A DNA stretch of 64,000 nucleotides. It comes from Antedon mediterranea. Lineage: Eukaryota; Animalia; Echinodermata. The stretch covers positions 21,993,432 through 22,057,431 of the forward strand of contig NC_092679.1 in assembly GCF_964355755.1 (NCBI RefSeq), written 5' to 3'. The notes below the pieces were generated by a model. The model saw only the letters and a program-made list of their open reading frames with translations. It ran no database searches and was not told the origin of the DNA. Below, in pieces: positions 4,303 through 49,371 of this stretch. Both the position numbers and the translations under genes were made by a program. Every line of letters starts with the position of its first letter. Within the stretch, counting starts at the first letter, position 1.

Positions 4303-4332
4303 ATAGTCTATTAATTAAGTTGGTGACATATA

Positions 4333-15246: not shown

Positions 15247-18200
15247 GTAAGTACAGGCTACAGCTCTATTCAAACTATCAAACTTTATGTGACAAAAAAT
15301 GTGATGTGCCCATATATGGACATGATGATGTTATCACTACCATATTTGGGAATATCACTACCATATTTGGGCACATTACACTGATAGTGTAGACATTTTC
15401 AATGAACAGTTCTATTTTATAATTATTTGACTTTGTAACATTGGATTTGTTTTTTCTTTTAGTATATTAACAGTGTTTTAAGCGTTGAATTAGTACTGAA
15501 AAAACTTCTTTGTTTGTTTGTTAAATTGACATTTACCATTCAAATAAAAAATAGTTTTCTGATTCAAATACGAAAAACATCATTGCAAAAGTTGTTTTTT
15601 CGTTCACTATGCTGTTATTTACTGATTAACAATTAATTAATATTACAATACATTAGCGAATGTATCTGTGAAAACCGCCGTTACGTTAATTTATGGTAAC
15701 GATAATGCGAATACTGCTGCAAGTTTAGTTTGCGAGGCTTTTAACGCATTGACAAGTTACTTAAGCGATGTATATCGACGACGATATGAAGTGATATCTC
15801 TGATTTATCATCCCTGATCAGTCGAGGATTATATTTTCATTTGCCATCTCTGAGTTGAGATTAGGCTTGGTGCAAGTTTGACGGGTATAATCATTTCTGG
15901 CATTATCAACTCAACTCAATTTAAGTGTTGCTAGTCGCCATGTGCATATTCATTTTTTATATATTTATGTAAATTCTAAAAGTCGATGTTTATTTCAAGA
16001 TTTTTTGCCGTTTTTACTTGTGGTGACTGTGGTTGTGTTTGTTTTCAACACCCGTTTTTTATAGTAATTTATGTTCTAGTAATTTTCGTTAATTGTTTCA
16101 TATTTTAATTAATTATAATTATGTGGTAATTCTTTGATTTTCATGCATGGGTAAAAGAAAATAATATTCATAGAACACTTTCTTGGAAATTGTAATGCAG
16201 GCTTGTTATTGAGATGTTATATGGACAATATTTATTATTATTACTGTCTATTGATCTGTCCAATGCGGAAAATCGTGGTTGTTAAAAAAAAAGTTGTCAT
16301 TATTAAAATCATAATCATTGACATATCAACAGTAATATTAGATTGTCATCAAAATCATTGACATATCAGTGATATTAGTTGTTATATAACACCTAAATAT
16401 TATTCCTGTCTTTTTATCGGAGGATTATGGTCACATATTGTGCAATAGTATAAATAGTATTAACTTTTTTTAGCCTTTGGGAAGGAAAAAAATGTACAAA
16501 CATAACTGTGATTCTGAATGTAAAATACAACAGTGCTGCCTATTTTTTTATAACAATAACATTTTTGGGGATGAGGTGAATGATGAAAGGTTATATTTCA
16601 TCATTCGCCTTGTTGAAATATAACCTTTCATCATTCACCTCATGCCATTATTTGTACCATTACACTCATAAACATTCATTATTTGTATATCATTATCAAT
16701 CACATCAACAATGATATTTGTTGCATTATCAAAATTATCATCAAATCATTTAAAAAACAACATTGATAAATTAATACTGATTTTGTTTCTAATTACCAAC
16801 AATGACATTTGTTGTTTAAATGACATAACATTTTAGTCAGTTGTTAGTTGACATTAAGAGTAGAAGTACATAGACGCTGAAATGTAAATCATTTCTATTC
16901 AAACTCTTATGATTAATTGATTCTTGATTAACTGTGACAGGCGAGTGTTTGTAAATATTACATACTCTCCTCTCCAAATCCATTAATAGATTGAAAACGT
17001 TCTATTAATCTATAAACATAAAGTTCGTATGTAGTTTGTGAAGTCATTAAAACTACTAATTATAGTTTTTTCATGTTTAAAAATACATTTTGATAATATA
17101 CATTTAGTTTATGATCACTCAAATCTAATTGTACTCAAAACAGCTCAATATTGTTTAGTTTGTTTTGAAGGATCATGTCAAAATTATTCTACTACATTAA
17201 TTCTACTGCAGCTACTGGAGTACTTAACTACAGTTTTACTTGAAATAATAATAATAGTTTGTTTATGTAGAGGTTCATGAAAGAGTTGCTGCAAGTCCAA
17301 AATATCAACCGAATATTTGTATAGTATCCAAATTTGTCCAGTATCATAGGTGAATTCGGTGATACAGCATCACGTGTTTCACATGTTACGCCTGTATCAT
17401 ACCCTAATCCTTATCCTATCCTTCCATGATACATGCACCGCATGTGATACATTACCTATAAGATGCTTTAATACAGAATTTGACAAATATTGCCATATGT
17501 AAAGATGTAGCACTGAAAATCTGGTTTCAAATCAATTGTTTGATTTGGATTTTGTGGTTTTTCTTTGAGGCGAATGCATTATTAATATTATGAAGATTGT
17601 AATATTAATTTTAACATTAGTAAGCGTCGAAAGAAACACGTATAAATTACTTATAGTGCTATATGCATTGTTATAAAAAAAAAAATCCAGTTATCGATGC
17701 ACTATGTTATTGTAAAAGAAATTACCAATAACCAAATAAAATTATAAATATAAATTAATTTTTCATATGACAAGATTTTTAGTGAAACCAATAGTTCATT
17801 TATTATATGAAATCATAATTTTAAAAATACAGCGCATATAAACATTTCCAATTCCTTTTGTTATTAAATACAATATTACATAACATGTTTAAAAACAACA
17901 CTATGAGATAATGTAAAAAGGGATACACTCAAAAAATGAATGAGTAGATGACAATGGATTTAAGGGATTTTCTTGGTGGTTGTGAATTTAAAATGTGTAT
18001 TGAATTTTAAATTATTTATGTTCATAACAATTATGAGAGACACTGAAGGTGGATTGTAGAAATCAATTATTTAAAGACGTTGTGTTTTGTTGGTATTAGT
18101 TATTAATTCAGTCTATATCATGTTGAATAGAGACAAAAAGCTTATATGAGTGGGTGGGTAGTGTAGATTTTCCAGTACTGTTGGGGGTATAGTTTTGCTG

Positions 18201-19082
18201 GGGAGGGGGGGGGGGGCGGAGGTTGGTAAGCTTGGTCACTCATCAATATCCTCTGTCATGTTTGTTTTAAAGCTCTGTCTACACTATAAAAAAAAAGTGT
18301 CATGTGCCCAAATATGGTAGTGATATGACATCATCATGTCCATTATATGGGCACATCACATTTTTTGTTTGTCACATAGAGTTTGATAGTGTAGACAGAG
18401 CTTTACATGGTAATGTAATCAACACTCTACAAAAAACACAATTCATCTATTTGGTCATCAATATTTAATAGATTTCTTAATATTATTTAAATTTATAATT
18501 TATTTAGTCTGGGCATTGTAGACGCTGTTGTTTACAAGTAGTAATATATTGGGCAAATAATATTTTTTATTGAGAGTTGAATTGAGAATAAAGTAAGAAT
18601 GATTGTATTTATTGTAATTATTTTTTTTGTTTATTTAATTTTTAAAGCATTAATACAGTGAATATGATAATGAATATTATTAAGTAATGTCTATTCCCAT
18701 CTACAGTACAATAACACCACTATAAAAATATAATAAGATTATGTTCAATATTATATGTAACTTATCTATTTTTTCATTAAAAAAATCAAATTATACTTTT
18801 TGCTATCTTTCTAATACCAGGGTCTTTGGTTCAAGTCATGAACAGTTCCAATACAGTGCCACTACCTAGCCTCATGTGAAACTTAATTTAGAAAGCCTGT
18901 AATTGGTGATTCACATAATTTGCTGTTGGAAGTTGTAAAATTAATAATAATAATAATATTTATTTCCACAACTAATAGAGCAAAATACAGAGTATCATAA
19001 TAAATATAGAAACAATAATGAACATAATTAAAAAAATGCAAGAAAATCAAATAAAAATAAGTTTTATACATTCTTCTTGCAG

Positions 19083-19296
19083 GACATCATGTCAGACAGC
19101 AATGCTGGAACATTACGAAATGCGCTGAACGAAATCAAAACGATGCTCGGAACGCCCATCAGAAGTTACATACCCGAGAACGATAGTTACGATCAGTACG
19201 GTCAGGACTCACTGCCGTCTGATAGTGACCAAGGATCTTCACATTTGATTGCAAACGGGGATATACCTGGTCAGATCACAAGATTTATGGGGAAAA
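19083..19296 (+). CDS. SAMD4: Smaug/SAMD4 exon, PHAT-like region
   Basis: DIMSDSNAGTLRNALNEIKTMLGTPIRSY...GDIPGQITRFMGK, with ttgcag acceptor and GTAAGA donor. Confidence 0.92.
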
Positions 19297-20865
19297 GTAA
19301 GAGTTTACGGTAGAAATCCTATTAAGGGCACACCTCCCGGACCAATAGGAGTGTTTCCTATCATTCTTTTTATGTGAAAGTGTCCCCTGAACACAGTAGT
19401 CCTCAAGCTCTATCTACACTATAAAATTTATGTGACAAAAAAATGTGATGTAGACAAGATGATATCACTACCATATTTGGGCATATCATTACCATATTTG
19501 GGCACATCACACTTTTTTTTTTCAAACTAGTTTGATAGTGTAGACGGAGGTTTGGGCTTTATGGCAGCCAAAGAAGGAAGGAGTATAAACATAGCTACAG
19601 AAAGGTTTAAAGCTCTGTTTACACTATCAAATGTTATGAATTTTATGAAAAATGTGCCTATATGCATATGATGATGTCATCACTACTATATTTAGGCATA
19701 TCACTACCATGCTCCCTCCCCTCCAAACCAATCTACCCTGCAGGAGGCAAACTGTAATTGTGTGGGTATAACAGAGATAGTCTAGTCATCCTCGGGTACA
19801 GTATATAGTACTTAGTAGGCTCACCTTCCAATCCTGACAAAATGTTGCATTCAAATGTGATAAATGACAGTAATGAAATTACAAACATGAAAATATTAAT
19901 GTTGTATGTTCAGAGAGTTTAAAAACTGAAACTAAATTGAAAGTTAACATTTTATACAACTTTCATGCTAGACAGTTTCTTGCTCTGTGTAATTATAACC
20001 GTGGTTAAAAAAGTAACGAGGGGAAATCCCCAGTTTTTACATTTATGCATTAACATAAATTATAATCCATGGAGGAAAGTAAATCAGTTGCGCCTGTCTA
20101 CACAAGGAAATTATTACAAGTATGGAAACAATAATTCTTGACCTTTTGACCTATTGCGCCCTCTAGAGATATATTACACACAAATAAATCATCTTTATAA
20201 TTATTTTCATTGTTGTATATATATCTTGAATCGAGTGCCTGAACGATTTTGGGAGGGGTGACGAAAACCAAACAGGGACACGTTCAAGTCTCTCCTGGCT
20301 CATGTACAAGAACCCAGCCCCTTTTTTGGAGGAGTAGAGGTTTACCCTGGAGTATTGTTTCTTTTGTCATGGAAAGACGCTATATATAAGAAACATCCAA
20401 CCAATATTAATAATAAAAATAATTGAAAACTTATATAGCACCGGTATCCCCCACCCGTGTGGAGCTCATGGCACTTTGTGCATTAGAAACGTGCAAGTAC
20501 AGTACATCAGCGAATAGCGACGTCTTCGGGTTGGTCTTGGAGCATTTAACTGTTGCTGGTAAACTGTTCCATACACTTAGTGCTGACCCCACTGATTTTT
20601 GACTTTATGCTCTTGAAGAAGGTTTTGTGACAATGAAAGTAGGCCTCTGCAGGATGATTCATAACGATCCACAAATATTGGCAACGTGTAATAATTAGTA
20701 CCATAAAAAATGTTATGACTTGATAAAATTATCAAGAGATTAAATTTTAAGAGATATTTATTATATGTTTTGATACAACCTCCTGATCACTAACCTGGCT
20801 TTCATACAACCCCTGATCTTGCGCTGATGGCTATGACAATTTTTACTTTATATTTTTATCTTTAG

Positions 20866-21073
20866 TGTGTACACAGTTGGTGATGTTGAGAAGACCAGAT
20901 GAAGATTCCATAAGCCTATACCTACAACTCCTTGAGAAATGTCTAAACCATGAAGCCTTCAGCAACATCCACAAGAAAAGACTGATGACGTGGCGCCAGA
21001 GCTTCCAAAAGTTTTCATCCAGAAGTCCGTACATTAGGAAGCAGTCCGTTCAAGATTTGCGAACTCCTAGAAC
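20866..21073 (+). CDS. SAMD4: Smaug/SAMD4 exon, PHAT-like region continued
   Basis: [45 protein letters not shown], with tttag acceptor and GTAAGA donor. Confidence 0.92.
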
Positions 21074-21495
21074 GTAAGAAATAATAGATTTTAAACGTTT
21101 ATTAAACAAGTACACATTACCCGAGTATATTTGCAGACATCCCAACTTGGAAATCATTAAATATTGAGATACTTTGAGGGCATTGTCATTTCTAAAATAA
21201 ACATCCAAACATAGAGAGGTGCTATTTCAAAAACTCTTAAGTATCAGTATGCCAGGCAATTTATAAACATGACAATTTCAATATACACTGTGTGTTCGGA
21301 TATGTGTTGGCACTGCATGCTTATTGTTTAGTTAACAAAAGGGCCTAAATAATAATTTATGCACTACCAGAATTTTTGGGGTCTTTAAGGGGTAGATAAC
21401 TCAAAATACGCAGAAACTGGAGACCTACAGTATCTGTATTTGACATTCAACTTCCAAAATGCGTACCTCTACCTAGATCTACTTCTTATTTGTAG

Positions 21496-21670
21496 GTGGG
21501 GCCACGTTAGTAACATTCCAATTGACTACAAGCCTAGTTTACGAAGCCAGCGGCTGTGTTATCCACGACCTTTGAACCAACGTGTTCCAATGGTTATTGG
21601 TATGGGTTCAAGTGGCTTGTTTAGGCCTGTAACAAATCACGCCAGCAACTTGAACTATTCACCCCAACAG
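21496..21670 (+). CDS. SAMD4: Smaug/SAMD4 exon, low-complexity C-terminal region
   Basis: tgtag acceptor and GTAAGT donor. The phase-2 start joins the previous exon in frame (WGHVSNIPIDYKPSLRSQR...YSPQQ). Confidence 0.82.
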
Positions 21671-21689
21671 GTAAGTTTTATATGTCATT

Positions 21690-21870
21690 TCTTTCTTCAG
21701 TCCATGTCGTCCCACTGCTGAGCAAAGGCTTCTCCCAATTGGTGCCAGTTGTTCCTGTCTTTCACAAATCTTGGCCATGCTGTGGTAATGGTCTGTCTGA
21801 TGAGCGCATCCCTTAATCTCAAATGAGGTCTACCCCTCTTTCTTTTCCAATATATTGGCACCTTTGGGCT
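21690..21870 (-). mobile_element. 5'-truncated RTE-clade LINE 3' end in a Smaug intron
   Basis: KRKRGRP...W..FVKDRNNWHQLGEAFAQQWD* is typical of an RTE ORF C-terminus and is followed by a short GAA-rich tail. Confidence 0.72.
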
Positions 21871-22097
21871 GGCCAAATATATCTGGTTTTTTTTTGGAAA
21901 GTCTGGCATTCGGAATGTGTTAAAAGGATGGTGGTAAAAGGAATTTGGAACCTTTTGGTTCTCAAGAAAAGTCTGGTATTGGGCGAGTTTCTGGCTTTCA
22001 GAGAAACCCGTATTGTTACATACAATATAGCAGGGATCTTACAGAGAAAAGTTTATTTTCTGTAGTCATAATACCCTTTGTTTCCTATGTTATTTAG

Positions 22098-22281
22098 TTA
22101 AGTGGTAACCACCATCAGGGTGTCCAACGAACACAGTCTATGCCTGTACGCAGGATGTCACAGCCAGTTGTCCAGCAACAGGGTCTGCAGACGGCAGAGT
22201 CAACGGCAACTTTACAAGAACCGGATATTAACAACTGTTTGGAAAACTTGTGTCGGAGTGTTACGGAAATAGCTCTCAGTG
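22098..22281 (+). CDS. SAMD4: Smaug/SAMD4 penultimate exon
   Basis: LSGNHHQGVQRTQSMPVRR...EPDINNCLENLCRSVTEIALS resembles the conserved SAMD4 motifs VQRTxSLP and LESLCLSMTEHAL. GTGAGT donor. Confidence 0.9.
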
Positions 22282-22711
22282 GTGAGTATACATTATGTGG
22301 CCATATATAATTGCATGCGTGAGGTAAGGATGTTCATATTGCGTCTTTATGAGGTAGAAAATTAAAAACAGTGCCTAAAGTTAATAGATTTTTTGGCGCT
22401 TTTTCTCCCATCATACAAAATAGAGATTCTTATAGTGCATTTTTCAGTCCATGTACTGTGTTGAAAAGGAAGGGAAAAAAGAAAAGGGGAAAAAAGAAAG
22501 GCAAAAAAGGGAAATAAATAAACAAACAAAATTAAATAAATTTTAAAAAATAAGAAATAGATTTGGTCAAGTCCTCACCAAAATGTTTTGATGTATTTAA
22601 GTTTATTTATATTTGAGTAGACAAAGGTAATTATGTCTGTGCATAGAAAGCTAATCATTTTTACAAAATCAAGACTTTGGTGTTTACATTTTTCCTCAAC
22701 ATTTTACACAG

Positions 22712-27440: not shown

Positions 27441-30400
27441 GTTATTGTTTGCATTTGAAACCATACATTACATTAAAACTGTTTGTTTCTAGTCAAGACT
27501 GAGATTAATCTGTTTTAATACTATTTTCATAAAAAGGTTTAATGTATTGTTTTCTCTATTAATGTACCCTTATTAATAAAAGAACTGTAGAGGCATTCTG
27601 TATTGAATATGATACATCTGTTAAATGACATTTGAACCCTCTCCTAACAAAATATGTATTTTCTCTTTTGTTTGACCCTGCTTTTTATTACATTTTTTGA
27701 TTCAAAATAAATGTTGAATGAGTGAAAATGCCGCCTGATTGAAAGCCCCAATACGTTGCATGTGCTTTTCGACCGAAATTGGTAAAGAGTTGCTTCAACC
27801 AAATTGCATTGATTCTGTCGCATACAGTATTTGAAAGTTGCATTGTTAACAAGTTTTGTTTAGTTTTTAAATTTATACAAAACAAAGTTAATTTATGGGT
27901 ATATATGTTATTATGGTTTAATGATATTACTTCCAGTCATAAAACATGATGCAATAATATTGCCGTGACGGAAGATATTAGCCAAAATACGAACAAACTT
28001 AGCCTTGTACTGTACATGATTTTTGCTGTAATTAAACTGGTTGACAATGTTGTTTTCATATCGCTAAATGCATGGCAAAGTAAACTGTACACAACAGGTA
28101 AATTATAGAGAGTTCTCAAAATGTTTTAAGAGAAGGACTTACCATTTACACAAAATTAGGCTGGAAATATGTTTATTTAATGGCAACCAATTGTCTGTGC
28201 TGTATCTCGCGTATGGCATTATATGACAAAAATCAAAGGCAATGTATGTAATACAGTATCACATGTTGCTCCTATATTATGTTTAGGTTCAAGATACAGG
28301 CTTCACATGTGATACTGTAGGCCTACATAAGATTACAGACTTAGCTTAATATGATACTAGTCAAATTATAGATAGAGGCATACAGTACAGGGAATCTGCA
28401 AATATGACCATGGATGAGTATAAGACTTGAAACCATTTGATGTAGAAATCCAAATTTGAGTAGCCCTTCCTAAAAAAAACAACTGGTGTACAATACTGTA
28501 TTGTGAACTGTACCATTTTCATTTTGGGGGTGTTACGAATAATACACAGATTTATTTCCTCAATGTAATACTCTCATGCATGTTTTGTCAAGTATTGTCC
28601 GTATATAATGAAACCAATTTTTTGTTATTATTTAATATGGGATTTTTTTGGGTGAGTAAAATTACATTTACATTTTACTACAGTAATCCGAGAAAATGGT
28701 TACATGTGCCCATTGCTTTTATTGCATTAAATTGCATTCAAAGTCATGTTTTTGTTTGTGTTGTTTTATTTTGTGGAAAAAAATGTGGAAAATTTTGCGA
28801 AAGATAATGAATATTAAAATGAACAGACAGAGTGAGTAGCACAAAAATATGCAGGATAACAAAAAAAGAAGAATTAAATGACGAAGATTAAAATGGTATA
28901 ATGACGTATGATGCATTGTACCAATTAATTAAACAATGAAGGAAACTAACAAGAAATTAAAAGAAACACCAAGAAGACCAAAAGAAACCGGGATAACCCA
29001 AATAAAAAAAGATTTAAGGAAAAAAATGTAGAATTTAGCAACAAAACCATCCTGTCCAACGGAGAAAAATATGGAAACAAGTTGTGGAAAGCGTAATGTC
29101 TGAATGACGAAAAAGTTTCACAAATTTTTCGGAAAGTTTCCAGTGTTATATGCAAAATATATTGCGTTATCACCATCTTAGAGAGTCATAGTAATCAGTT
29201 ATATCAAAAAATAAAAAGGTTGAAATTTGGCCATTTTTCAGAAATTGGCTAAAAACGCACTTTTTAAAATACTGTTATTATGCAATGTATATATTGCTAT
29301 ATATTGCGTTATAAGCATCTTATAGACGTATAGTAACCATTTATGTCAAAAAAATAAAAAGGTCGAAATTTAGCCAAATTTCAACCTTTTTATTTTTCTA
29401 TAACACTGGTTACTATAGCCTATGCTATAGACTATGCGCATGTTTATTGTACTATAGTAACCATTTAAGTCAAAAAATAAAAGGGTTGAAAAATGGCCAA
29501 ATTTCGATCTTTTTATTTTTTGATTAAACTGATTACTATAGCATAATAGACATGAGCAGAACCCATTATTCGACTCTGCGCATGTTTATTGTGCTATAGT
29601 AACCATTTATGTTATAAAATAAAAGGGTCGAAAAATGGTAATTTTTCGAAAATTTCCCTGTACTATAGTACAGGTATTTCTTCCAAAACCGACCAAATTT
29701 CGACCTTTTTATTTTTTGATAAAACTGATTACTATAGCATGCGCAGAACCCATTATTCGTCTCTGCGCATGTTTATTGTGCTATAGTAACCATTTATGTC
29801 AAAAGATAAAAGGGTCGAAAAATGGCAATTTTTCGAAAATTTCCCTGTACTATAGTACAGGGATTTCTTCCAAAACCGACCAAATTTCGACCTTTTTATT
29901 TTTTGATAAAACTGATTACTATAGCATAATAGACATGCGCAGAACCCATTATTCGTCTCTGCGCATGTTTATTGTGTTATAGTAACCATTTATGTAAAAA
30001 AATAAAAGGGTCGAAAAATGGTAATTTTTCGAAAATTTCCATGTACTATATATAGTACAGGGATTTCTTCCAAAACCCACAAAATTTCGACCTTTATATT
30101 TTTTGATAAAACTGATTACTATAGCATAATAGACATGCGCAGAACCCATTATTCGTCTCTGCGCATGTTTATTGTGTTATAGTAACCATTTATTTCAAAA
30201 AATAAAAGGGTCGAAAAATGGCAATTTTTCGAAAATTTCCCTGTACTATAGTACAGGGATTTCTTCCAAAACCGACCAAATTTCGACCTTTTTATTTTTT
30301 GATTAAACTGATTACTATAGCATAATAGACATGCGCAGAACCCATTATTCGTCCCTGCGCATATTTATTGTGCTATAGTAACCATTTATGTTAAAAAATA

Positions 30401-32758
30401 AAAGGGTCGAAAAATGGTAATTTTTCGAAAATTTCCATGTACTATAGTACAGGGATTTCTTCCAAAACCGACCAAATTTCGACCTCTTTATTTTTTGATA
30501 AAACTGATTACTATAGCATAATAGACATGCACAGCACCCATTATTCGACTCTGCGCATGTTTATTGTGTTATAGTAACCATTTATTTCAAAAAATAAAAG
30601 GGTCGAAAAATGGCAGTTTTTCGAAAATTTCCCTGTACTATGGTACAGGGATTTCTTCCAAAACCGACCAAATTTCGACATTTTTATTTTTCGATAAAAC
30701 TGATTACTATAGCATAATAGACATGCGCAGAACCCATTATTCGTCTCTGCGCATGTTTATTGTGTTATAGTAACCATTTATTTCAAAAAATAAAAGGGTC
30801 GAAAAATTGCAATTTTTCGAAAATTTCCCTGTACAGGGATTTCTTCCAAAACCGACCAAATTTCGACCTTTTTATTTTTCGATAAAACTGATTACTATAG
30901 CATAATAGACATGCACAGCACCCATTATTCGACTCTGCGCATGTTTATTGTGCTATAGTAACCATTTATGTCAAAAAATAAAAGGGTCGAAAAATGGCAA
31001 TTTTTCGAAAATTTCCCTGTACTATAGTACAGGGATTTCTTCCAAAACCGACCAAATTTCGACCTATTTATATTTTTTGATAAAACTGATTACTATAGCA
31101 TAATAGACATGCGCAGAACCCATTATTCGTCTCTGCGCATGTTTATTGTGTTATAGTAACCATTTATTTCAAAAAATAAAAGGGTCGAAAAATTGCAATT
31201 TTTCGAAAATTTCCCTGTACAGGGATTTCTTCCAAAACCGACCAAATTTCGACCTTTTTATTTTTCGATAAAACTGATTACTATAGCATAATAGACATGC
31301 ACAGCACCCATTATTCGACTCTGCGCATGTTTATTGTGCTATAGTAACCATTTATGTCAAAAAATAAAAGGGTCGAAAAATGGCAATTTTTCGAAAATTT
31401 CCCTGTACTATAGTACAGGGATTTCTTCCAAAACCGACCAAATTTCGACCTTTTTATTTTTCGATAAAACTGATTACTATAGCATAATAGACATGCGCAG
31501 AACCCATTATTCGTCTCTGCGCATATTTATTGTGCTATAGTAACCATTTATGTCAAAAAATAAAAGGGTCGAAAAATGGTAATTTTTCGAAAATTTCCCT
31601 GTACTATAGTACAGGGATTTCTTCCAAAACCGACCAAATTTCGACCTGTTTATTTTTTGATAAAACTGATTACTATAGCATAATAGACATGAGCAGAACC
31701 CATTATTCGACTCTGCGCATGTTTATTGTGCTATAGTAACCATTTATTTCAAAAAATAAAAGGGTCGAAAAATGGCAATTTTTCGAAAATTTCCCTGTAC
31801 TATAAAACAGGGATTTCTTCCAAAACCGACCAAATTTCGACCTTTATATTTTTTGATAAAACTGATTACTATAGCATAATAGACATGTGCAGAATCCATT
31901 ATTCGACTTTGCGCATCTTTATTGTGCTATAGTAACCATTTATGTCACAAAATAAAATGGTCGAAAAATGGTAATTTTTCGAAATATTTCCTGTACTATA
32001 GTACAGAGATTTCTTCCAAAACCGACCAAATTTCGACCTTTTATTTTTCGATAAAACTGATTTCTATAGCATAATATACATGCGCAGAACCCATTATTTG
32101 TCTCTGCGCATGTTTATTGTGCTATAGTAACCATTTATGTCAAAAAATAAAAGGGTCAAAAAATGGCAATTTTTCGAAAATTTCCCTGTACTATAGTACA
32201 GGGATTTCTTCCAAAACCGACCAAATTTCGACCTTTTTATTTTTCGATAAAACTGATTACTATAGCATAATAGACATGCACAGCACCCATTATTTGACTC
32301 TGCGCATGTTTATTGTGCTATAGTAACCATTTATGTCAAAAAATAAAAGGGTCGAAAAATGGTAAATTTTCGAAAATTTTCCTGTACTATAGTACAGGGA
32401 ATTCTTCCAAAACCGACCCAATTTCGACCTTTTTATTTTTTGATAAAACTGATTAATATAGCATAATAGACATGCGCAGAACCCATTATTCGTCTCTGCG
32501 CATGTTTATTGTGCTATAGTAACCATTTATGTCAAAAAATAAAACGGTCGAAAAATGGGAATTTTTCGAAATATTCCCTGTACTATAGTACAGAGATTTC
32601 TTCCAAAACCGACCAAATTTCGACCTTTTTATTTTTCGATAAAACCGATTTTTATAGCATAATATACATGCGCAGAACCCATTATTTGTCTCTGCGCATG
32701 TTTATTGTGCTATAGTAACCATTTATGTCAAAAAATAAAAGGGCCTGACATATATGTC

Positions 32759-33701
32759 TGTAAGGATGTGGACGACAACACAAAAGGAAAAACACGCCTT
32801 TTCTCACTTTTACCACGGTCCGGTGGTGTATTTGGTTTTAATTTGTTTTTAGCATAACAATAGAGATCAGTATGGTCCTTTTAATCAGATCTTTAATTAA
32901 GTAAGAGACAAAACTATCTGCTTCCTTGACCGGTTCATGAATACAAAAAAAAGCAAATCATTTAAAAAAGACTGTTACAATTATAGGGGGCAGCAACACC
33001 TATAGGGGGCAGTATTTAATTATCACATGATTAGATTAATCCCCACACTCCCCTGTTTAAGCTGAGTTTGTCCTCAAACTTAATATTATTCACAACAAGA
33101 AGAATCTTTTCAGTATTTTCAGAGTCAATGCCAGCATCATCAGGCCAGTCAGGGTAAACGTCCCCAGTACCATCGTCTTCAACAAAGGACTCTACACATT
33201 CCCCTTCGGCTCCCACAAAGTGTCTCATCTTCTTCTCTGGGAGAACATATACTGTGTTTCCATTACCATGGGCAGCACGCCTAGTTGCTTCTAGTTCGGC
33301 TCTTAGCTCATCAACCGTCCTCTGCACATCTCGCAACGATGCCTTGCTTGCCATCACTGATCTCTAATGTTAAAGCCAAATACGATCCACGATCCCACTT
33401 CTGACACCAAATTGTAAGGATGTGGACGACAACACAAAAGGAAAAACACGCCTTTTCTCACTTTTACCACGGTCCGGTGGTGTATTTGGTTTTAATTTGT
33501 TTTTAGCATAACAATAGAGATCAGTATGGTCCTTTTAATCAGATCTTTAATTAAGTAAGAGACAAAACTATCTGCTTCCTTGACCGGTTCATGAATACAA
33601 AAAAAAGCAAATCATTTAAAAAAGACTGTTACAATTATAGGGGGCAGCAACACCTATAGGGGGCAGTATTTAATTATCACATGATTAGATTAATCCCCAC
33701 A
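32759..33701 (-). mobile_element. Miniature non-autonomous LTR retroelement (TRIM-like, Gypsy-derived)
   Basis: Two 289-bp TG...CA LTRs (32759-33047 and 33413-33701) that look identical by eye. TSD TGTC on both sides. PBS TGGTGTCAGAAGTGGGAT (33392-33409, minus strand) complementary to the tRNA-Leu 3' end. PPT AAACAGGGGAG (33048-33058). Confidence 0.95.
33031..33354 (-). CDS. Short gag-derived ORF inside the mini-LTR element
   Basis: MASKASLRDVQRTVDELRAELEATRRAAH...VYVLPEKKMRHFVGAEGECVESFVED looks like a coiled coil plus the start of a Gypsy capsid (KxxxFxG...VExFxE). It runs through the PPT and stops inside the 3' LTR. Confidence 0.6.
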   Translation of the reverse strand: MASKASLRDVQRTVDELRAELEATRRAAHGNGNTVYVLPEKKMRHFVGAEGECVESFVEDDGTGDVYPDWPDDAGIDSENTEKILLVVNNIKFEDKLSLNRGVWGLI

Positions 33702-34878
33702 TGTCTATTATTATCTCTTATTACTATATTTCCCTGTACTATAGTACAGGGATTTCTTCCAAAACTGACCAAATTTCGACCTTTTTATTTTTTGATAAAA
33801 CTGATTACTATAGGATAATAGACATGCGCAGAACCCATATTTTGTCTCTGCGCATGTTTATTGTGCTATAGTAACCATTTATGTCAAAAAATAAAAGTTC
33901 GAAAATTTCCCTGTGCTATAGTAAAGGGATTTCTTCCAAAACCGACCAAATTTCGACCTTTTTATTTTTTAATAAAACTGATTACTATAGCATAATATAC
34001 ATGCGCAGAAGTCATTATTTGACTCTGCGCATATTTATTGTGATATAGTAACCATTTATGTCAAAAAATAAAAGGGTCGAAAAATGGCCATTTTTAGAAA
34101 ATTTCCCTGTACTATATTATAGGGATTTCTTCCAAAACCGACCAAATTTATTGTTCTATAATGGCCATTTTCGAAAATTTCCCTGTACAGGGATTTTTTC
34201 CAAAAATAGCCAAATTTCGACATTTTTATTTTTCGATAAAACGGGTTAGCATAGTATAGTTGACTTGCGCAGAACCCATTATTCGACTCTGCGCATATTT
34301 ATTGTGCTATAGTAACTATTTATGTCAACCAATAAAAGGGTCGAAAAATGGTCATTTTCGAAAATTTCCCTGTACTATAGTACAGGGATTTCTTCCAAAA
34401 CCGACCAAATTTCAACATTTTTATTTTTTGATAAAACTGATTACTATAGCATAATAGACATGCGCAGAACCCATTATTTGTCTCTGCGCATGTTTATTGT
34501 GCTATAGTAACCATTTTTTTCCAAAAATGGCAAAATTTCGACTTTTTTAAAATACTATTATTATTATACAATAATATTGCTATAATATGTGCATATATTG
34601 CGTTATAAGAATCTTATAGACGTATAGTAGTAACTATTTATGTCAAGAGGGGAAGAAAAAATTTTGAGTATGTGACAGGCTGTAATCTGCCTGAACATCT
34701 AAGTCATGTTTTTAGATAAAATACATTTATTTATAGTATTTATCCGACAAGAAAACTTACTTATATATGTCATGGGATATTTTTCTAGCCATAATGATGA
34801 TTTACTAACGCGACCGAAAAAAAAGACGCGACCGCGATGTATCAAAAACGTCTGGCGGCGCTACATACAGAAATGCCG

Positions 34879-38447: not shown

Positions 38448-39134
38448 CTTCAGGATAAGGGTGTCCTCTAAATAGGAGTAGGATGTAAACATTTTACATA
38501 ATATGTTGTCCTGGTTTGTTAACAGAAAAAGTGTCCCCAAAGGATGTATTCTACTCTAATTATTATATATCTTAATAGTTGATGTTTATTGTGGAAAAAA
38601 GTAGTTGTGATAAAAGAAATTACTAGAATCTTGCCATTTAAGTTGATTAAATGTATAGTTTACAATGAAAATGTAAATACTATTACTAAGTTCCTTTCAC
38701 CTAAAAACTGTGTGCCTACAGAATCAACCTGTCAAATCATTAAATGCTTGACATCTGTCGATATTTAAAACGTCTTATTATTTTGCTAAAATTTCATACA
38801 ATTATATAATGAGTGTGATATTTATATTATACTATGAATTACTAGTAATAAGTGACTGCAATGTTAATATTTTGTTTATATATTTCTGTGTGCAATAAAC
38901 TTTGTAAATGCTACACTATTAAGGCCTATATTGTTGATTATTCTACAAAAATGTGATGTTTTGTTCAACACACACTAATATTTTCTCCATTCAATGAATA
39001 TAATGCATTCATTACTTTACCTAATGCAAACAAAAACCTGCCACTCTGACCACAGCAGTTTATTTATGGTAGCACAATGGTGTTGGTTTCACATTTATCG
39101 GTCTTTTGTCTTTGTTCATGTCTTTCCTATATCA

Positions 39135-41035
39135 TCATTCTTTCTATTCCTAACATTCCTGTTTTCACCATCCTTTCTATTCCTAACATTCCTGTTTTCA
39201 CCATCCTTTCTATTCCTAACATTCCTGTTTTTCACCATCCTTTCTATTCCTAACATTCCTGTTTTTCACCATCCTTTCTCTTCTTAACATTCCTGTTTTC
39301 CACCATCATTTCTATTCTTAACATTCCTGTTTTTCACCATCCTTTCTATTCTTAACATTCCTGTTTTTCACCATCCTTTCTCTTCTTAACATTCCTGTTT
39401 TTCACCATCATTTCTATTCTTAACATTCCTGTTTTTCACCATCCTTTCTATTCTTAACATTCCTGTTTTTCACCATCCTTTCTATTCCTAACATTCCTGT
39501 TTTTCACCATCCTTTCTATTCCTAACATTCCTGTTTTTCACCATCCTTTCTATTCTTAACATTCCTGTTTTTCACCATCCTTTTTATTCTTAACATTCCT
39601 GTTTTTCACCATCCTTTCTATTCCTAACATTCCTGTTTTTCACCATCCTTTTTATTCCTAACATTCCTGTTTTTCACCATCCTTTCTATTCCTAACATTC
39701 CTGTTTTTCACCATCCTTTCTATTCCTAACATTCCTGTTTTTCACCATCCTTTTTATTCCTAACATTCCTGTTTTTTACCATCCTTTCTCTTCTTAACAT
39801 TCCTGTTTTTCACCATCATTTCTATTCTTAACATTCCTGTTTTTCACCATCCTTTCTATTTTTAACATTCCTGTTTTTCACCATCCTTTCTATTCCTAAC
39901 ATTCCTGTTTTTCACCATTCTTTTTATTCTTAACATTCCTGTTTTTCACCATCCTTTCTATTCTTAACATTCCTGTTTTTCACCATCCTTTCTATTCTTA
40001 ACATTCCTGTTTTTCACCATCCTTTCTATTCCTAACATTCCTGTTTTTCACCATTCTTTTTATTCTTAACATTCCTGTTTTTCACCATTCTTTTTATTCT
40101 TAACATTCCTGTTTTTCACCATCCTTTTTATTCTTAACATTCCTGTTTTTCACCATCCTTTTTATTCTTAACATTCCTGTTTTTCACCATCCTTTCTCTT
40201 CTTAACATTCCTGTTTTTCACCATCCTTTCTCTTCTTAACATTCCTGTTTTTCACCATCATTTCTATTCTTAACATTCCTGTTTTTCACCATCCTTTCTA
40301 TTTTTAACATTCCTGTTTTTCACCATCCTTTCTCTTTTTAACATTCCTGTTTTTCACCATCCTTTCTCTTAACATTCCTGTTTTTCACCATCCTTTCTAT
40401 TCCTAACATTCCTGTTTTTCACCATTCTTTTTATTCCTAACATTCCTGTTTTTCACCATTCTTTTTATTCTTAACATTCCTGTTTTTCACCATCCTTTCT
40501 ATTCTTAACATTCCTGTTTTTCACTATCCTTTCTATTCCTAACATTCCTGTTTTTCACCATTCTTTTTATTCTTAACATTCCTGTTTTTCACCATTCTTT
40601 TTATTCTTAACATTCCTGTTTTTCACCATCCTTTTTATTCTTAACATTCCTGTTTTTCACCATCCTTTCTATTCCTAACATTCCTGTTTTTCACCATCCT
40701 TTCTATTCTTAACATTCCTGTTTTTCACCATCCTTTCTATTAACATTCCTGTTTTTCACCATCCTTTCTATTCCTAACATTCCTGTTTTTCACCATCCTT
40801 TCTATTCCTAACATTCCTGTTTTTCACCATCCTTTCTCTTCTTAACATTCCCGTTTTTCACCATCCTTTCTCTTCTTAACATTCCTGTTTTTCACCATCC
40901 TTTCTATTCTTAACATTCCTGTTTTTCCTGTTTTTCACCATCCTTTCTCTTCTCAACATTCCTGTTTTTCACCATCCTTTCTCTTCTTAACATTCCTGTT
41001 TTTCACCATCCTTTCTATTCTTAACATTCCTGGTT
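39135..41035. repeat. 34-bp pyrimidine-rich minisatellite, about 55 copies
   Basis: Unit CCATCCTTTCTATTC(C/T)TAACATTCCTGTTTTTCA repeated in tandem. Confidence 0.98.
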
Positions 41036-44165: not shown

Positions 44166-46902
44166 TCAGTTAAACTGTTGAAGTATGCAACTGTTAGCTG
44201 CGTGGTTAGCTGCAAAGAGGTCACAGTCCGTACTGTCTACTACATTTATCACTTGGTTCATGTGAAGAATCTCGTTGGGCTGCCGTATGTTCGGCATTTG
44301 CTGCTGCTGCAGTAACAGACTGTGTTGTTTATGGTTTTGTAAAGTGTAAGGCGGTGGCAGTCTGGAAGGTAAAGATGTTTGGCCATCATACTGTTGGAAC
44401 TGGTTAGAGTCTTTGACAATGTTGTAAATAGCAGGTTGTTGTTGTTGTTGCTGCTGTATGTACATTGGCTGGTTCTGAGACATATTCATCATTTGAGAAG
44501 TTTGAGGCTGTGTAAAAGCCATTGGTTGTAAATTTGACAGATTCACCTGCTTCTCATGAGGTACCTGTCCATGGTATAACATATTGTTACTTATTTGTTT
44601 TCGCACTCCATTAGTTTGAACCACACGTTGCTGCGGCATATGATTCATAGGGTTTGATTTCATTTGTGGACCACTTAATATTTTGCGCATTTCTTCCTCG
44701 GGCACAAGCGGCACTGCTGGAGGTTGATGGTTGAACTGTACTGGTTGTTGTTGCTGATCCCTTGCTACTGGACTAACCATCATTGGCTGCTGTTGTGGCT
44801 GGAACATATGTGTTCTGGTTTGCTCAAAGTCTTCTCTCTGCATCTGCTGTCTTCTCAGAAATGTCTCCAGATGCTTCTCCTGTAGGTCCAATTTCTGTTG
44901 CTCATGTTTCTGTATTAAAAGTAATCTTTGGCGTTCCTGTTCCTCCTCAAGACTTTTTTGATGCTTCTGGAATTGCTCCAGCAATTGCTGATCCTCCATG
45001 TTGTTGTTCATCATTACAGGTCCCTGGACAACGTTTCCATTGGACAGAATATTGAAGTCACCTCCATGAGCTCCTTGTACATTTCCACTGCAGCCAGGTC
45101 GCGTGAGTAACGAATGAAGTATTGACGATTGTTTAGATTCTGAATCTAATTGCCCTGCCACACTAGTAGGTGAACTTTGATCTTTGATGTCAAGTTTTGA
45201 TATACGATCTGTTACATGGGCTGTAGGAACTTGATGCAACATGTGACCAACATTGTGGTTTTGTGGAGCATTCATTCGTTGCTGGGCACCATTCACTCTT
45301 TGTGGTGTGACATTTACACCATTAATTCCTTGCGTACCATTAGTTTCTGAAGGAGTAACATTCAGTCCTTGAGTATTAACATTTAACTCTTGTGATGCAT
45401 GTTTTACTCTTTGCGGAGTAACATTAATTCCTTGCGGAGTAACATTAATTCCTTGTGGAGAAACATTAAGTCTTTGCGGAGTAACATTAAGTCCTTGCGG
45501 AGTAACATTAAGTCCTTGTGGAGTAACATTAATTCCTTGTGGAGAAACATTAATTCTTTGAGAGTTCATATACGATGGTAAACTATGCACAGAGCCTTCT
45601 GGTGAGGCTGCCAATTGATTTTGTTCTCGTAAATAATCAAGGGAATCTGAAAGGGCATCATTTGTCGTTTGTCCATTCACATAACCTCTAGACTTATCAC
45701 AAGATTCTTGTGGCAGCTGAGTGCCCGTCGATAAATCATGGTCTGTGGGCTCAGTAATGATAACGCCTTCATTATCAGCTGGTTTAGTTAAATCAAAAAT
45801 ACCAGCTGAGATCATTGCATCAGCAGCAGAATTGTCCATAATGTTTTCAATGTTATATTCCAGGGTAAAATTGGCAATATCTTCTGGAAGGCTAGAGCTT
45901 TGTGGTCTGTTAATTTTTGTAAATGTTACATTCATAAAGTTACTTTGACCACTATTAGGTGGAAATTTCATTTTCATTGCATCTTCCAAGGCAGTATTGG
46001 TATCAGTATTTGTATCACAGTTTTGCGGACAACTGGTTAGAAGCTTTTCAAGAATACCTGGCACTTTGCAAACATTCGCTTTATCAAACAAGTCGTCGTA
46101 CTGTAGCGGACTGTCGACTGATTCCATCGTGATGCCAGGACTCATCAGCTGACTTAAGTTGTCAGGACTGTTGAGATTGAAAGATACACCAGCTGGAAGA
46201 TTTCCTGGAATATCTGGTGATTCAGAACTTTGTAAGTCTTCCATAGTAATTTCCATCAAGTCATTGAAAACACTGTCCTCTTCTGCGATTGACAACATAG
46301 TAGTGCTTTTACTACTTTGATGCGTTTGAGTTTCCGGTGAGCCATGAGGGCTTTCATTGGAACTACCCTCTGAACTGTGTTCACTGTGCATTGGGGAACC
46401 TAATTGTTCAACAGGCCATATAGCCTCTTCCTTTAAGACAGGACAATTTATTTTATTGGATTCAACCTGTCCAACAACAGAAGGTTTATTGACAATTATT
46501 GGCTTCGTATTTGTGTTGACTACTGGGCCAGCTGCTGATGTAGATTGTTGGGCTGGGAAGGTATTAAACGACGCAGGTGATGATTTCTCAATACCAACAT
46601 CCATTTCAATTGGACAATCATCCGTAACTTCTTGTTTCAGAAGTGCAGCAATGTTCAATGTTGGTGGAGGACAATAAGGCTTCTTGATAACAGCATTATC
46701 AAGAACCGGCTGCGGTATCAATTTAGCAATTTCAGCATCACACATTGTTGTCGATGACTCCGGAACCTCAATGATATCTGGAGAGGATGTGACTCTTGCC
46801 ATCTCCATCATGTCAGATCCTGGTGAAGAAACTCCATTTCCAATAACAGTCTCATTATGTTGAAGACGTTCTAGCATAAGGAATTTCTCTCCTTCTTCTT
46901 GC
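44166..46902 (-). CDS. bHLH-PAS (HIF-alpha/SIM/NPAS class) transcription factor, 2.7-kb terminal exon encoding a Q/S/P-rich tail
   Basis: Long ORF 44166..46997. The acceptor ttttaacag|G at 46903 joins it in frame to the PAC exon (YVIG|QEEGEKFL). Contains poly-Q tracts, LxxLL, PPPY and a heptad repeat. Confidence 0.9.
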
Positions 46903-47125
46903 CTGTTAAAAATAGATGAAAAAAAAATTAAGTTTCTTTTCCTACAAATGTGTATAAACTGGTGACACAAAAGTATAGATAGTAACAGCACCGTCATTGG
47001 CGTATAAATTTATCTATAAAGCTCTGTCTACACTATCAAAGTAGTTTGACAAAAAAAGTGATATGCCTAAATATGGTAGTGATATGCCCAAATATGGTAG
47101 TGAGTGATATGACATCATCGTGTCC

Positions 47126-48007
47126 CTACGCTCACGCTAGCCATTCGCGTTTTCGCAAATTGCGATTGAAGTTGTCAATTTGCGAAAAAAAATTTTTTAA
47201 TCATTCGCAAAACTTGCGAAAATAATTTTTCCTTAAAAACTCAAAACTTCGTCCGCCTAGGCCCTAGCTAGGTTTCAAATATTAAAGTTGTATGTAAACC
47301 ACAACGACTTCGCCGCCGTCGCCAGCCTATAATAAGTGACAGCGATGTAGCGTTACTTACCATCAACGACGTTTTTTCCGCTAGGAGGCCTATTTATTGT
47401 ACAGGCGAATAGTTGTAAATCGCGTTATCTGTAAATGTACACGCGCCCAACTAAGGAGAATAATTGTAATTACGAACAAACAAACAAACTGCGCATGTGT
47501 ACAGATGCAAATATCGCGCAATAACAAACCTGCTGCATGAACATTCCGACGTCGTCGTAGTTCGTTTTTGGTGTGTGTTACGATGTTTTCGTGAGTGAAT
47601 AAGAATTATATTGTTTGTGATGAAAAACTTCATCCAGGCAGTCTGCATATGCTGATAATTGAAGCCAATCATACATGACTCGGCCGTGGCATAGATAGTC
47701 AACTATTGAGTAGACCTCCTTGGCCGTGGCGACTGGTATCGCGTCAGGCCGATTAGGCTGCAGTAGATAGGCCTAACATTTTTTAATGCGGTCATGTTTT
47801 ATTTGTATTTTAATCACAAATTTTGAATGAATAAAAATAAAAACAATACAAGACAACAACCTACATATTTATTTGATGTATCTACCGTGAAATTTAGCCA
47901 TTTTCATGGTTTATAAAATTTGCGAAAGAATTTGCAATTTTGCAAAAAAAAATCGACGACCTTTCGCAAGTTTTGCGAAAGCAAATTTGACCTTAGCGTT
48001 AGCGTAG
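47126..48007. mobile_element. Unclassified TIR element with a 5-bp TSD, nested in a Harbinger-type MITE
   Basis: TIRs CTACGCTCACGCTA and TAGCGTTAGCGTAG, TSD TGTCC, and subterminal TTCGCAA/TTGCGAA clusters. The host MITE halves are at 47020-47125 and 48008-48050. Confidence 0.85.
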
Positions 48008-48062
48008 TGTCCATATATGGGCACATCACATTTTGTTGTCACACTATGTTTGCTTTACTTAC

Positions 48063-48207
48063 CCAATAACATAGTTCATGCAGACGACATACTGTGCCTC
48101 GTTGTTGGTATTGTAGATAATTGTTGCCTTTGTCTGCATCCAAACCCAGTCACCATTCTTACCAAGGAAACGGTAGTGTTTGGTAGAACTTGATCCTTTC
48201 ACGATAA
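48063..48207 (-). CDS. bHLH-PAS factor, PAS-B/PAC exon
   Basis: IVKGSSSTKHYRFLGKNGDWVWMQTKATIIYNTNNEAQYVVCMNYVIG parallels HIF1A [31 protein letters not shown]...IVCVNYVV. Canonical splice sites. Confidence 0.94.
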
Positions 48208-48914
48208 CTAGAAAAGATGTTTAACAAAAATGTTAAGAAATGGTCACCTTTTTATTGAATGGTCAATGTAACAACCTGATGTGGTAGCTACTTTAAATCC
48301 TTAACTAAATTGAAAGAGATGCCAATTGTTCTGTTATCATGTCTAATAAACTTTACTATTGTTGAGTTCACACATGGTCACTATCACAATATATGTTGCC
48401 AAAGTCAGCGGCTTGTTCACACACACATTCACAATCACAATCTATGATAACTCAAATCATTGTCATCATTTTACCTGTAATCTTGATTGGACAGAAGTAT
48501 ACCAAGAGCTGATTGGCTTCTAAAGAAACTACTACTAAAGTGCTCCTGATCCGACTGATCAGTCTATTCCGAGCGATCACTATGGTAAGCTGTTAGCTCC
48601 CAATGTGGATCAAAGTTCACTTGTGCGAACCAGCCCTTTAAGGTTACATTTCTACTAATCTAAAGCTCTGTCCACACTATCAAAACTTTATGTGATAAAA
48701 AAATGTGATGTGCCCATATATGGACATGATGATGTCATATCACTGCCATATTTGGACACATCACACCTTTTTTTGTCAAACTAGCTTAATAGTGTAGTCA
48801 GAGCTTAACCCATCTATTGTCTTAAAGATTTTAAAACCCATTTAAATTGTTGGTATGCATTTGTTATTTTAATGGTTTTTCTGTTATAAATAAGTTTGAA
48901 CGATTAGTACTTAC

Positions 48915-49021
48915 GTTTGGCATGACAATCACTAACTTTGTTTGCGTCAAGAGGGTTATGGAATTGGTAAGCAGTCTTTCCTATTAGTTCTTGAGGTTCA
49001 TACCCAATAAGTGTGATAATC
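48915..49021 (-). CDS. bHLH-PAS factor, PAS-B exon
   Basis: RIITLIGYEPQELIGKTAYQFHNPLDANKVSDCHAKL parallels HIF1A [26 protein letters not shown]. Confidence 0.94.
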
Positions 49022-49371
49022 CTAAATAATAAATAAAATCATATCATAGAAACAAAAGGAAAAAGACAACACCAGATAGGGGGAAATATTTGTACTAGGT
49101 TTCATTGATTCAAAGTTAGGATCCCTTTAGCGATGAGTTTAGTATTCAGTTTCAGCTAAAATTGTGTGATAAATTGTGACATTTTGAGATGGGATGTACG
49201 GGCCAGGGATTTAAACTACTAATTTCAGCAAGTCCTCGGAAATATTTGGTAGTGGAGCTGTAGTATGGTGGTTAATGTGATTGCCCACTTTGTGCTACGC
49301 CGTAAATTAGGCAGCTCTCTGTAAAGAAATATTAAAGAGCGACACCCCTCAGGACTGCCTATCTACCTTAC

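What the first reader, a model, noticed from the sequence alone, without database searches (positions are those of the whole stretch)
32755..33705. Intact, very young 943-bp mini LTR retroelement that keeps an open gag-derived ORF
Seen in sequence: apparently identical 289-bp LTRs, a 4-bp TSD (TGTC), an 18-nt tRNA-Leu PBS, a PPT, and a 365-bp interior almost filled by one uninterrupted ~107-aa ORF. The ORF looks like a gag N-terminus fused in frame to the element's 3' end, and it stops inside the LTR. Established: TRIMs are usually non-coding and are mobilised in trans, and 4-bp TSDs are common for Gypsy elements. Inference: this may be a recently active parasite family encoding a truncated Gag (packaging aid or dominant-negative decoy) rather than a one-off deletion.
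Basis: partly seen in the sequence, partly recalled or inferred. Interest (0 to 1): 0.8.

Follow-up and report, generated by a model that had tools for sequence, protein, structure and literature searches.

The report
Mini retrotransposon carrying captured cyclophilin-40 fragment
A tiny jumping gene in a feather star carries a 105-letter, intron-free piece of the host's cyclophilin-40 gene where its own enzyme genes should be, likely picked up by a copying slip, and it has likely since spread to some 15-20 copies that are likely transcribed; this kind of capture is already known from other animals.

Summary
The structure is confirmed: 943 bp on the minus strand, identical 289-bp LTRs, TGTC target duplication, tRNA-Leu(CAA) primer site, purine tract and an open 107-codon frame. 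The frame has three parts: Gag residues 1-60 (60/60 identical to an Antedon mediterranea PNMA-type Gag), 35 codons of the host cyclophilin-40 (PPID) gene (33/35), and the element's 3' end. Both junctions sit on exact shared blocks (9 and 11 nt). The host gene has an 80-82-nt insert, read as an intron, inside the captured piece; the element lacks it. This fits double template switching onto a spliced host mRNA during reverse transcription (Tan 2016). Contig depths suggest about 14-23 copies, more than the longer relatives. The chimera is the main form of this family in two RNA-like runs from two samples, and it is absent from two DNA runs of a related organism. Distinct insertion sites could not be counted. 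The open frame is most simply inherited and young; nothing shows that the protein works. This scan noted the same kind of capture before in shark, ray and other genomes. Verdict: new member of a known kind.

The parts
32755..32758 (.). 4-bp target-site duplication (TGTC), left copy
33702..33705 (.). 4-bp target-site duplication (TGTC), right copy
33413..33701 (-). 5' LTR, 289 bp, TG...CA
   Evidence: 100% identical to the 3' LTR
33392..33409 (-). primer-binding site, 18 nt, tRNA-Leu(CAA)
   Evidence: equals the first 18 nt of the tRNA-Leu(CAA) probe in PMC7997516; the same 12-nt core is the Steamer PBS (PMC8905726)
33031..33354 (-). chimeric ORF, 107 aa: Gag(1-60) + PPID(205-239) + 15 codons of element 3' end and LTR
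33175..33354 (-). first 60 codons of a PNMA/zinc-knuckle (Ty3/Gypsy) gag
   Evidence: 60/60 to P0002, A. mediterranea XP_071947621.1 and XP_071960493.1; family assignment
33175..33183 (-). 5' switch point: 9-nt block (codons V-E-D) shared by gag and PPID mRNA
   Evidence: gag contigs leave the window at 33175 and PPID contigs at 33183 (loose ends)
33079..33183 (-). captured host cyclophilin-40 (PPID) mRNA piece, 105 nt, residues 205-239, between the isomerase domain and the first TPR match
   Evidence: 33/35 to P0003 XP_071951832.1; bovine Cyp40 1ihg E=1.2e-4; domains
33114..33115 (-). exon-exon junction: the host gene carries 80-82 extra nt here, the element does not
   Evidence: X8 record 26, X1 records 4 and 5, X7 record 21 and joint, lengths
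33079..33089 (-). 3' switch point: 11-nt block shared by PPID mRNA and the element's native 3' end
   Evidence: PPID contigs leave at 33079; native 3'-end contigs leave at 33088-33089 in X7 and X8, and X1 contigs break at 33089
33048..33078 (-). native 3' end of the element with the polypurine tract at 33048-33054
   Evidence: also present in non-chimeric relatives in X6, X7, X8
32759..33047 (-). 3' LTR, 289 bp; holds the ORF's stop codon (33031-33033); carries two letters (32949, 32964; 33603 and 33618 in the other LTR) that differ from the family majority
29497..34550 (.). host 196-bp tandem array into which the element inserted (context, not part of the element)

Best explanation
This is a young non-autonomous Ty3/Gypsy mini-element whose interior is the start of gag joined to an intron-free piece of host cyclophilin-40 mRNA, likely made by two template switches during reverse transcription and likely copied many times since by a longer helper element. 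Shown: the anatomy, the three-part ORF, the two shared blocks at the junctions, and the loss of the host's 80-82-nt insert. Inferred: a PPID mRNA was co-packaged in a virus-like particle. Reverse transcriptase, running from the 3' end, would have jumped onto it at the 11-nt block, copied 85 more bases across the splice junction, and jumped back at the 9-nt block in gag, deleting the rest of gag and all of pol. The product kept what is needed in cis (LTRs, PBS, 5' gag RNA, purine tract), is likely transcribed, and is likely mobilised in trans; it appears to outnumber its longer relatives 2-4 fold. The 107-aa protein is most likely a passenger.
For: Gag 60/60 and PPID 33/35 with a V-E-D overlap. 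Loose ends show gag, PPID-upstream and PPID-downstream sequence leaving exactly at 33175, 33183 and 33079; read by eye, they encode the next ten residues of P0002 and P0003. Shared blocks of 9 and 11 nt have chance 4.5e-5 and 3.7e-6 (5e-4 and 8e-5 at an AT-rich match rate). The host insert is seen in 3 of 6 laid runs (X1, X7, X8) and is absent from the element and from the RefSeq protein. In X1 the 5' junction contig has depth 427.6 and the 3' one about 324, against 18.7-22.8 for host-only PPID contigs (14-23x), 202 for gag that runs on and 95 for the native 3' end. Two LTR letters found at only 1.7-2.1x host depth stand in both LTRs of this copy, as expected when both LTRs are written from one RNA. 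Chimeric contigs in X1, X2 and X3 differ from the window at one place where host contigs differ at two, which fits one shared change at 33099 and a single origin (positions inferred from contig ends). In X3 all 6 of 6 contigs and in X2 all 9 of 9 lack the intron; the chimera makes up 2996 of 3039 gag-5' depth in X3 and 169 of 237 in X2. X8 (organism C): 0 of 7 contigs bridge a junction; X7: depth over 33124-33171 is the host contig alone. The same hallmarks define LTR-mediated retrocopies (PMC5131818). Mini-Ty1 needs only 380 nt of 5' and 357 nt of 3' RNA in cis (PMC4974528).
Against: No genome was available, so no second insertion site or TSD was seen; the copy number rests on contig depths, which the tool warns are not copy numbers. 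X1 and X3 are one sample and may be the source of the window; only X2 is independent. Run types are not on record (X2 is a guess, X3 unlabelled), and contigs give no strand or true level. The letters of the intron were not shown, so GT-AG ends were not checked. No pol of the helper was recovered (0 of 4731 candidates). The 5' interior RNA folds no better than shuffles (z -0.10), so a packaging signal there is analogy only. A second mini variant without PPID in X2 is also in frame with the same stop, which is mildly unexpected for a passenger ORF (about 1 in 3).
Confidence: 0.85

Rival explanations
1. The chimeric 107-aa protein is functional: its N-terminal Gag helix would bind full-length Gag and poison or modulate particle assembly.
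For: Native gag start codon kept; frame open through both junctions; no frame-breaking indel listed for runs X1-X3; abundant in RNA-like runs; the PPID-free mini variant in X2 is also in frame to the same stop.
Against: Lacks the zinc knuckle and almost all of the region aligned to PNMA capsids (residues about 29-219); in a low-confidence model the cut falls inside helix 54-68 (pLDDT 50). Both changes in the captured piece alter an amino acid. An element that harmed its own helper would not be expected to outnumber it. Tan 2016 found 14 of 17 young Drosophila retrocopies in frame and offered youth as the possible reason.
Confidence: 0.08
2. The PPID piece entered at the DNA level: a cDNA or processed pseudogene of PPID was patched into an existing element by microhomology-mediated repair or gene conversion, not by template switching inside a particle.
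For: Microhomology also marks DNA repair (established knowledge); intron loss only requires an RNA step at some point.
Against: It needs an extra intermediate, and none was seen: contigs leaving the captured piece continue as the PPID gene itself in X1, X2, X3 and X8. Sense orientation, replacement of internal ORFs and shared blocks at both ends match the template-switch pattern.
Confidence: 0.05
3. One capture event was multiplied passively by expansion or segmental duplication of the 196-bp array, not by retrotransposition.
For: The copy sits inside a tandem array; distinct flanks of chimeric copies were not shown.
Against: This copy's two private LTR letters are at single-element depth and occur in both LTRs; the patch beside the TSD occurs once in the window; the chimera is abundant in RNA-like runs, where the window's own LTR letters are absent in X2.
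Confidence: 0.06
4. The junctions are an assembly artefact.
For: None found.
Against: Contigs crossing both junctions occur in X1, X2 and X3, from two samples and two studies.
Confidence: 0.01

Closest known systems
LTR-mediated retrocopies of animals (Tan et al. 2016, PMC5131818; passages and section 5 read)
   Same: Partial host mRNA replaces internal ORFs; shared blocks at both fusion points (median 6 bp there, 9 and 11 here); both LTRs kept; in frame with the parent gene; further rounds of retroposition as a non-autonomous element.
   Different: An echinoderm (that paper covered fly, mosquito, zebrafish, chicken, mouse, human); the whole unit is under 1 kb; it likely has 14-23 copies and dominates its family, whereas two Drosophila cases had more than one insertion site.
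TRIMs, including gene-carrying plant TRIMs (Gao et al. 2016, PMC4717578, passages and section 13 read; bivalve TRIMs, PMC6934838, passages)
   Same: Under 1,000 bp, terminal repeats, PBS, PPT, 4-6-bp TSD, no RT or integrase; gene-carrying TRIMs hold exon pieces without introns and have two or more copies.
   Different: LTRs are 289 bp (100-250 bp in the definition quoted in PMC6934838); it keeps a gag start and a 107-codon ORF; gene-carrying TRIMs in PMC4717578 were plant elements of 1,172-1,449 bp with 5-bp TSDs; here the parent Gag is identifiable at 100% identity.
PNMA-type Ty3/Gypsy elements (Gypsy12_DR Gag, PMC3789554, passages; PNMA domain in Gmr1-like and Cer elements, PMC4131045, passages)
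   Same: The parent Gag's nearest clusters are PNMA/zinc-knuckle Gags (score 0.97).
   Different: No pol was recovered, so the clade (Gmr1-like or other) is not assigned.
Maize Bs1 and HERV-K/FAM8A1 transductions (seen only as cited in PMC5131818)
   Same: An LTR element carrying spliced host gene pieces.
   Different: One short piece of one gene here; very young; no evidence of a host function.

Membership tests
LTR-mediated retrocopy (Tan 2016) | partial host mRNA replacing internal retrotransposon ORFs | tested here: met
   PPID 205-239 lies between gag codon 60 and the native 3' end
LTR-mediated retrocopy (Tan 2016) | short shared sequence at both fusion points | tested here: met
   9 nt and 11 nt
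LTR-mediated retrocopy (Tan 2016) | intron loss relative to the parent gene | tested here: met
   80-82-nt insert in host contigs of X1, X7, X8, absent from the element; intron end letters not shown
LTR-mediated retrocopy (Tan 2016) | both LTRs and a target-site duplication present | tested here: met
LTR-mediated retrocopy (Tan 2016) | further retroposition to dispersed sites | tested here: inconclusive
   depth ratio 14-23x and private letters in both LTRs point to it; separate sites not seen because no genome was held
LTR-mediated retrocopy (Tan 2016) | co-transcribed with the LTR element, sense strand | tested here: inconclusive
   dominant in two runs whose host PPID contigs are spliced; contigs give no strand and the run type is not on record
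TRIM | total length under 1,000 bp with 4-6-bp TSD, PBS and PPT | tested here: met
   943 bp, TGTC, tRNA-Leu PBS, purine tract
TRIM | terminal repeats of 100-250 bp | tested here: not met
   289 bp against the range in PMC6934838
TRIM | no reverse transcriptase or integrase | tested here: met
   the 365-bp interior is fully accounted for
TRIM | no coding capacity | tested here: not met
   107-codon ORF from the native gag start; 'no coding capacity' is from PMC4717578. TRIM-like, not filed as a strict TRIM
Ty3/Gypsy | Gypsy-type Gag (capsid plus CCHC knuckle) in the parent | tested here: met
   P0002: zf-CCHC E=1.1e-5; PNMA, Retrotrans_gag and Ty3_capsid clusters
Ty3/Gypsy, Gmr1-like clade | pol domain order and RT phylogeny | not testable with these tools
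   no pol-containing relative found; no genome

The most novel reading that the evidence does not exclude
The captured piece is not a random passenger: carrying host cyclophilin-40 sequence gives the mini-element an edge, either as camouflage (silencing it would also silence an essential host mRNA) or by feeding small RNAs against a co-chaperone that helps load Argonaute. A transposon would then have out-bred its helper by stealing a piece of the host's RNA-silencing machinery, caught within one young lineage.
Probability: 0.06. Interest if true: 0.8.

Novelty: new member of a known kind. Interest (0 to 1): 0.42.

Why it matters
It is a very clean and recent example of host-gene capture by an LTR retrotransposon in an echinoderm: the parent Gag, the donor gene, both switch points, the lost intron, a sister deletion without the capture and a related organism lacking it can all be seen. 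Because it appears to be multi-copy, transcribed and still moving, it offers a natural test of what happens just after a capture: whether a captured host piece shields the element from silencing or draws small RNAs onto the host gene. The mechanism itself is established, which limits the interest.

Tried and rejected
Whole-genome search: no genome is held for this window, so copies and TSDs were not counted. Pfam on the 107-aa ORF: 0 families. Exact look-up: the ORF protein is not in the collection. Representative-protein search: 9 hits at E<=0.001, including two Gag relatives and one PPID-like fragment; among the three I read (P0005, P0008, P0010) none was a Gag-PPID fusion. Longer relatives of the full Gag (Gag-Pol): none among 4731 candidates. 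X6 (organism B): 2 contigs at depth about 3, too shallow to call the chimera absent. RNA fold of 33175-33412: z -0.10. Structure model of the full Gag: mean pLDDT 50, a hint only. Complex prediction of the chimeric protein with full Gag: no verdict, score 0.02; not used as evidence either way. Intronic read-through as the source of RNA signal from this copy: the HIF1a-like coding exons end at 44169 and the Smaug-like pieces lie left of about 22.3 kb, so it is outside both coding spans; untranslated exons were not mapped. Paper searches for a description of this element or of PPID capture (listings only) showed none; subscription papers, Repbase/Dfam and supplements were not searched. Earlier scan notes by sequence and in this genome: none. 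Rejected: plain post-insertion deletion (cannot explain the PPID codons); strict TRIM (two defining features not met).
Full report
Observation. The window holds a 943-bp element at 32759-33701, sense on the minus strand, with two 289-bp LTRs that are identical base for base and a TGTC duplication on both sides. An 18-nt primer-binding site starts 3 nt inside the 5' LTR boundary and equals the start of a published antisense probe for tRNA-Leu(CAA) (PMC7997516, one passage seen); its 12-nt core is also the Steamer PBS (PMC8905726, one passage). A short purine tract precedes the 3' LTR. The ORF 33354-33031 gives 107 residues and stops five codons into the 3' LTR. With 0 differences in 289 bases, the 95% upper bound on LTR divergence is 1.0%. 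No second copy lies in the window.

Host and setting. Five exons in the window match an Antedon mediterranea HIF-1-alpha-like protein at 92-100% identity, the 911-residue exon at 100%, so the host is that feather star or something nearly identical. The element lies about 10 kb from the coding ends of that gene and of a Smaug-like gene, inside a 196-bp tandem array.

What the ORF is. A search of longer proteins returned 3 hits among 252 candidates. Residues 1-60 are 60/60 identical to a 307-aa A. mediterranea protein listed under two RefSeq accessions, which has a CCHC knuckle and whose nearest clusters are PNMA-type Gypsy Gags. Residues 58-92 are 33/35 identical to residues 205-239 of the host cyclophilin-40, PPID, and also match bovine cyclophilin 40 (1ihg, E=1.2e-4). 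This stretch lies between the isomerase domain (33-194) and the first TPR match (from 300), so neither functional domain was captured. The last 15 residues come from the element's 3' end and LTR.

Junctions. I laid 6 of the 20 runs listed. Contigs that continue as gag leave the window at 33175, contigs that continue as upstream PPID leave at 33183, and those that continue as downstream PPID leave at 33079; read by eye, the loose ends encode the next ten residues of P0002 or P0003. Native element 3' ends leave at 33088-33089 in X7 and X8, and in X1 contigs break at 33089, with a hidden contig of depth about 95 ending there. So gag and PPID share 9 nt at the 5' junction, and PPID and the element's end share 11 nt at the 3' junction. 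A randomly placed junction would show such blocks with probability 4.5e-5 and 3.7e-6, or 5e-4 and 8e-5 at an AT-rich match rate.

The donor was spliced RNA. In X8 one 1002-nt contig matches both halves of the captured piece with 86 letters between 33110 and 33115; X7 shows the same joint; in X1 a 418-nt contig at depth 18.7 does likewise. The insert is 80 nt in X1 and 82 nt in X8, falls between codons 80 and 81 of the ORF, and is absent from the RefSeq protein, from the host contigs of X2 and X3, and from the element. I read it as an intron; its end letters were not displayed.

A family, not a single accident. In X1, host-only PPID contigs have depth 18.7 and 22.8. The 5' chimeric junction has 427.6 and the 3' junction about 324, or 14-23 times the host gene; gag that runs on past the junction has 202 (9-11x) and the native 3' end 95 (4-5x). 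The tool warns that contig depth is not a copy number, so this is a rough internal ratio, and X1 may be the window's own sample. Two LTR letters (32949, 32964) differ from the family majority (depth 936) and occur on a contig of depth 38.6, 1.7-2.1 times the host gene, yet both LTRs of this copy carry them. That is what reverse transcription of one RNA gives, so this copy likely arose by a further round of retrotransposition. Chimeric contigs differ from the window at one place and host contigs at two; from contig ends and the protein comparison I place these at 33114 (private to the window) and 33099 (shared by the family), which points to a single capture. Distinct insertion sites could not be counted because no genome is held.

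Expression and range. In X3 all 6 contigs laid and in X2 all 9 lack the intron, so both look like RNA. In X3 the chimera accounts for 2996 of 3039 gag-5' depth; if X3 were DNA like X1, gag running on would be near 1400 and the intron contig near 130, and neither is present. Chimera to host-PPID depth is 2.8-4.3 in X3 and 0.8-1.9 in X2; contigs cannot give strand or true level. X2, a second sample and study, also holds a sister mini-element with 24 more gag bases and no PPID (874 bp if otherwise the same), in frame to the same stop, at depth 59. In organism C the family and the host gene are present, but 0 of 7 contigs in X8 bridge a junction and X7 shows only host depth over the captured piece, so the capture likely postdates that split. 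X6 is too shallow to judge.

Mechanism. Shown: anatomy, donor, switch points, intron loss. Inferred: a PPID mRNA was co-packaged; reverse transcriptase switched onto it at the 11-nt block and back at the 9-nt block, dropping most of gag and all of pol; the product kept the cis signals and is mobilised in trans. This is the model of Tan et al. 2016 (PMC5131818; passages and section 5 read). Keeping the first 180-204 gag bases in both mini forms is likely a cis-RNA requirement, by analogy with mini-Ty1 (PMC4974528, passages), although this RNA folds no better than shuffles. The open frame needs no selection: 60 codons are native gag, 35 are native PPID joined through identical codons, and 15 are open by chance; the other two frames read from the junction hit stops after 27 and 7 codons. 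Against a working protein: no knuckle, almost no capsid, a cut inside a predicted helix (low confidence), and both changes in the captured piece alter residues. For it: both mini forms are in frame, and no indels were listed in organism A.

Comparison and novelty. It meets the testable hallmarks of LTR-mediated retrocopies. It is TRIM-like in size but fails two TRIM criteria (repeat length, no coding capacity); plant TRIMs carrying intron-free gene pieces are known (PMC4717578, passages and section 13). My paper searches (listings only) showed no description of this element; subscription journals, repeat databases and supplements were not seen. This scan has noted the same kind of capture on other DNA (unchecked AI notes). 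The boldest reading rests on the donor: cyclophilin 40 modulates Ago2 loading in Drosophila (seen only as a cited title and one passage in PMC12859917), so the captured piece might shield the element or aim small RNAs at that gene. Nothing here tests this, and short length alone could explain the element's success; I give it 6%.

Verdict. A real, young, likely active host-gene-capturing mini-retrotransposon; known mechanism, unusually complete evidence; new member of a known kind; interest 0.42.

Noticed in passing
run X2, joint 33081 to 33175: A second mini-element of the same family with 24 more gag bases and no PPID piece, also in frame to the same stop; listed in X2 only, of the 6 runs laid.
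   Followed up: partly
window 32744-32754 and 33706-33727: The insertion site is not plain array sequence: a patch of about 37 bp including the TSD replaces about 24 bp of the 196-bp unit, and the left flank forms a 12-bp palindrome with the TSD. The patch occurs once in the window. Origin unexplained.
   Followed up: partly
window 32750-32758: Two contigs from other loci (X1 record 1 from 32752, an X2 contig from 32750) align 7-9 bases into this copy's flank before diverging, a weak hint of an AT-rich target preference; mismatches were allowed.
   Followed up: no
window 29497-34550: 196-bp tandem array with internally palindromic units (about 75% self-complementary) and decayed units at both edges; possibly transposon-derived.
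   Followed up: no
window 44169-50066 (- strand): Five coding exons of a HIF-1-alpha-like bHLH-PAS gene; the last exon encodes 911 residues and includes a 21-bp coding repeat at 45352-45560.
   Followed up: partly
window 3339-22310 (+ strand): Exon-like frames of a Smaug-like gene; the piece at 15157-15249 matches Drosophila Smaug (1oxj, E=8.3e-4). The other pieces are assigned by recalled resemblance only.
   Followed up: partly
window 39132-41032: 34-bp minisatellite, 56 copies, with strong strand skew.
   Followed up: no
window 33265: All gag-5' depth in X2 shows a synonymous other letter at this place that X1 lacks, although X2 holds both mini forms; this may be contig merging or a population difference.
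   Followed up: no
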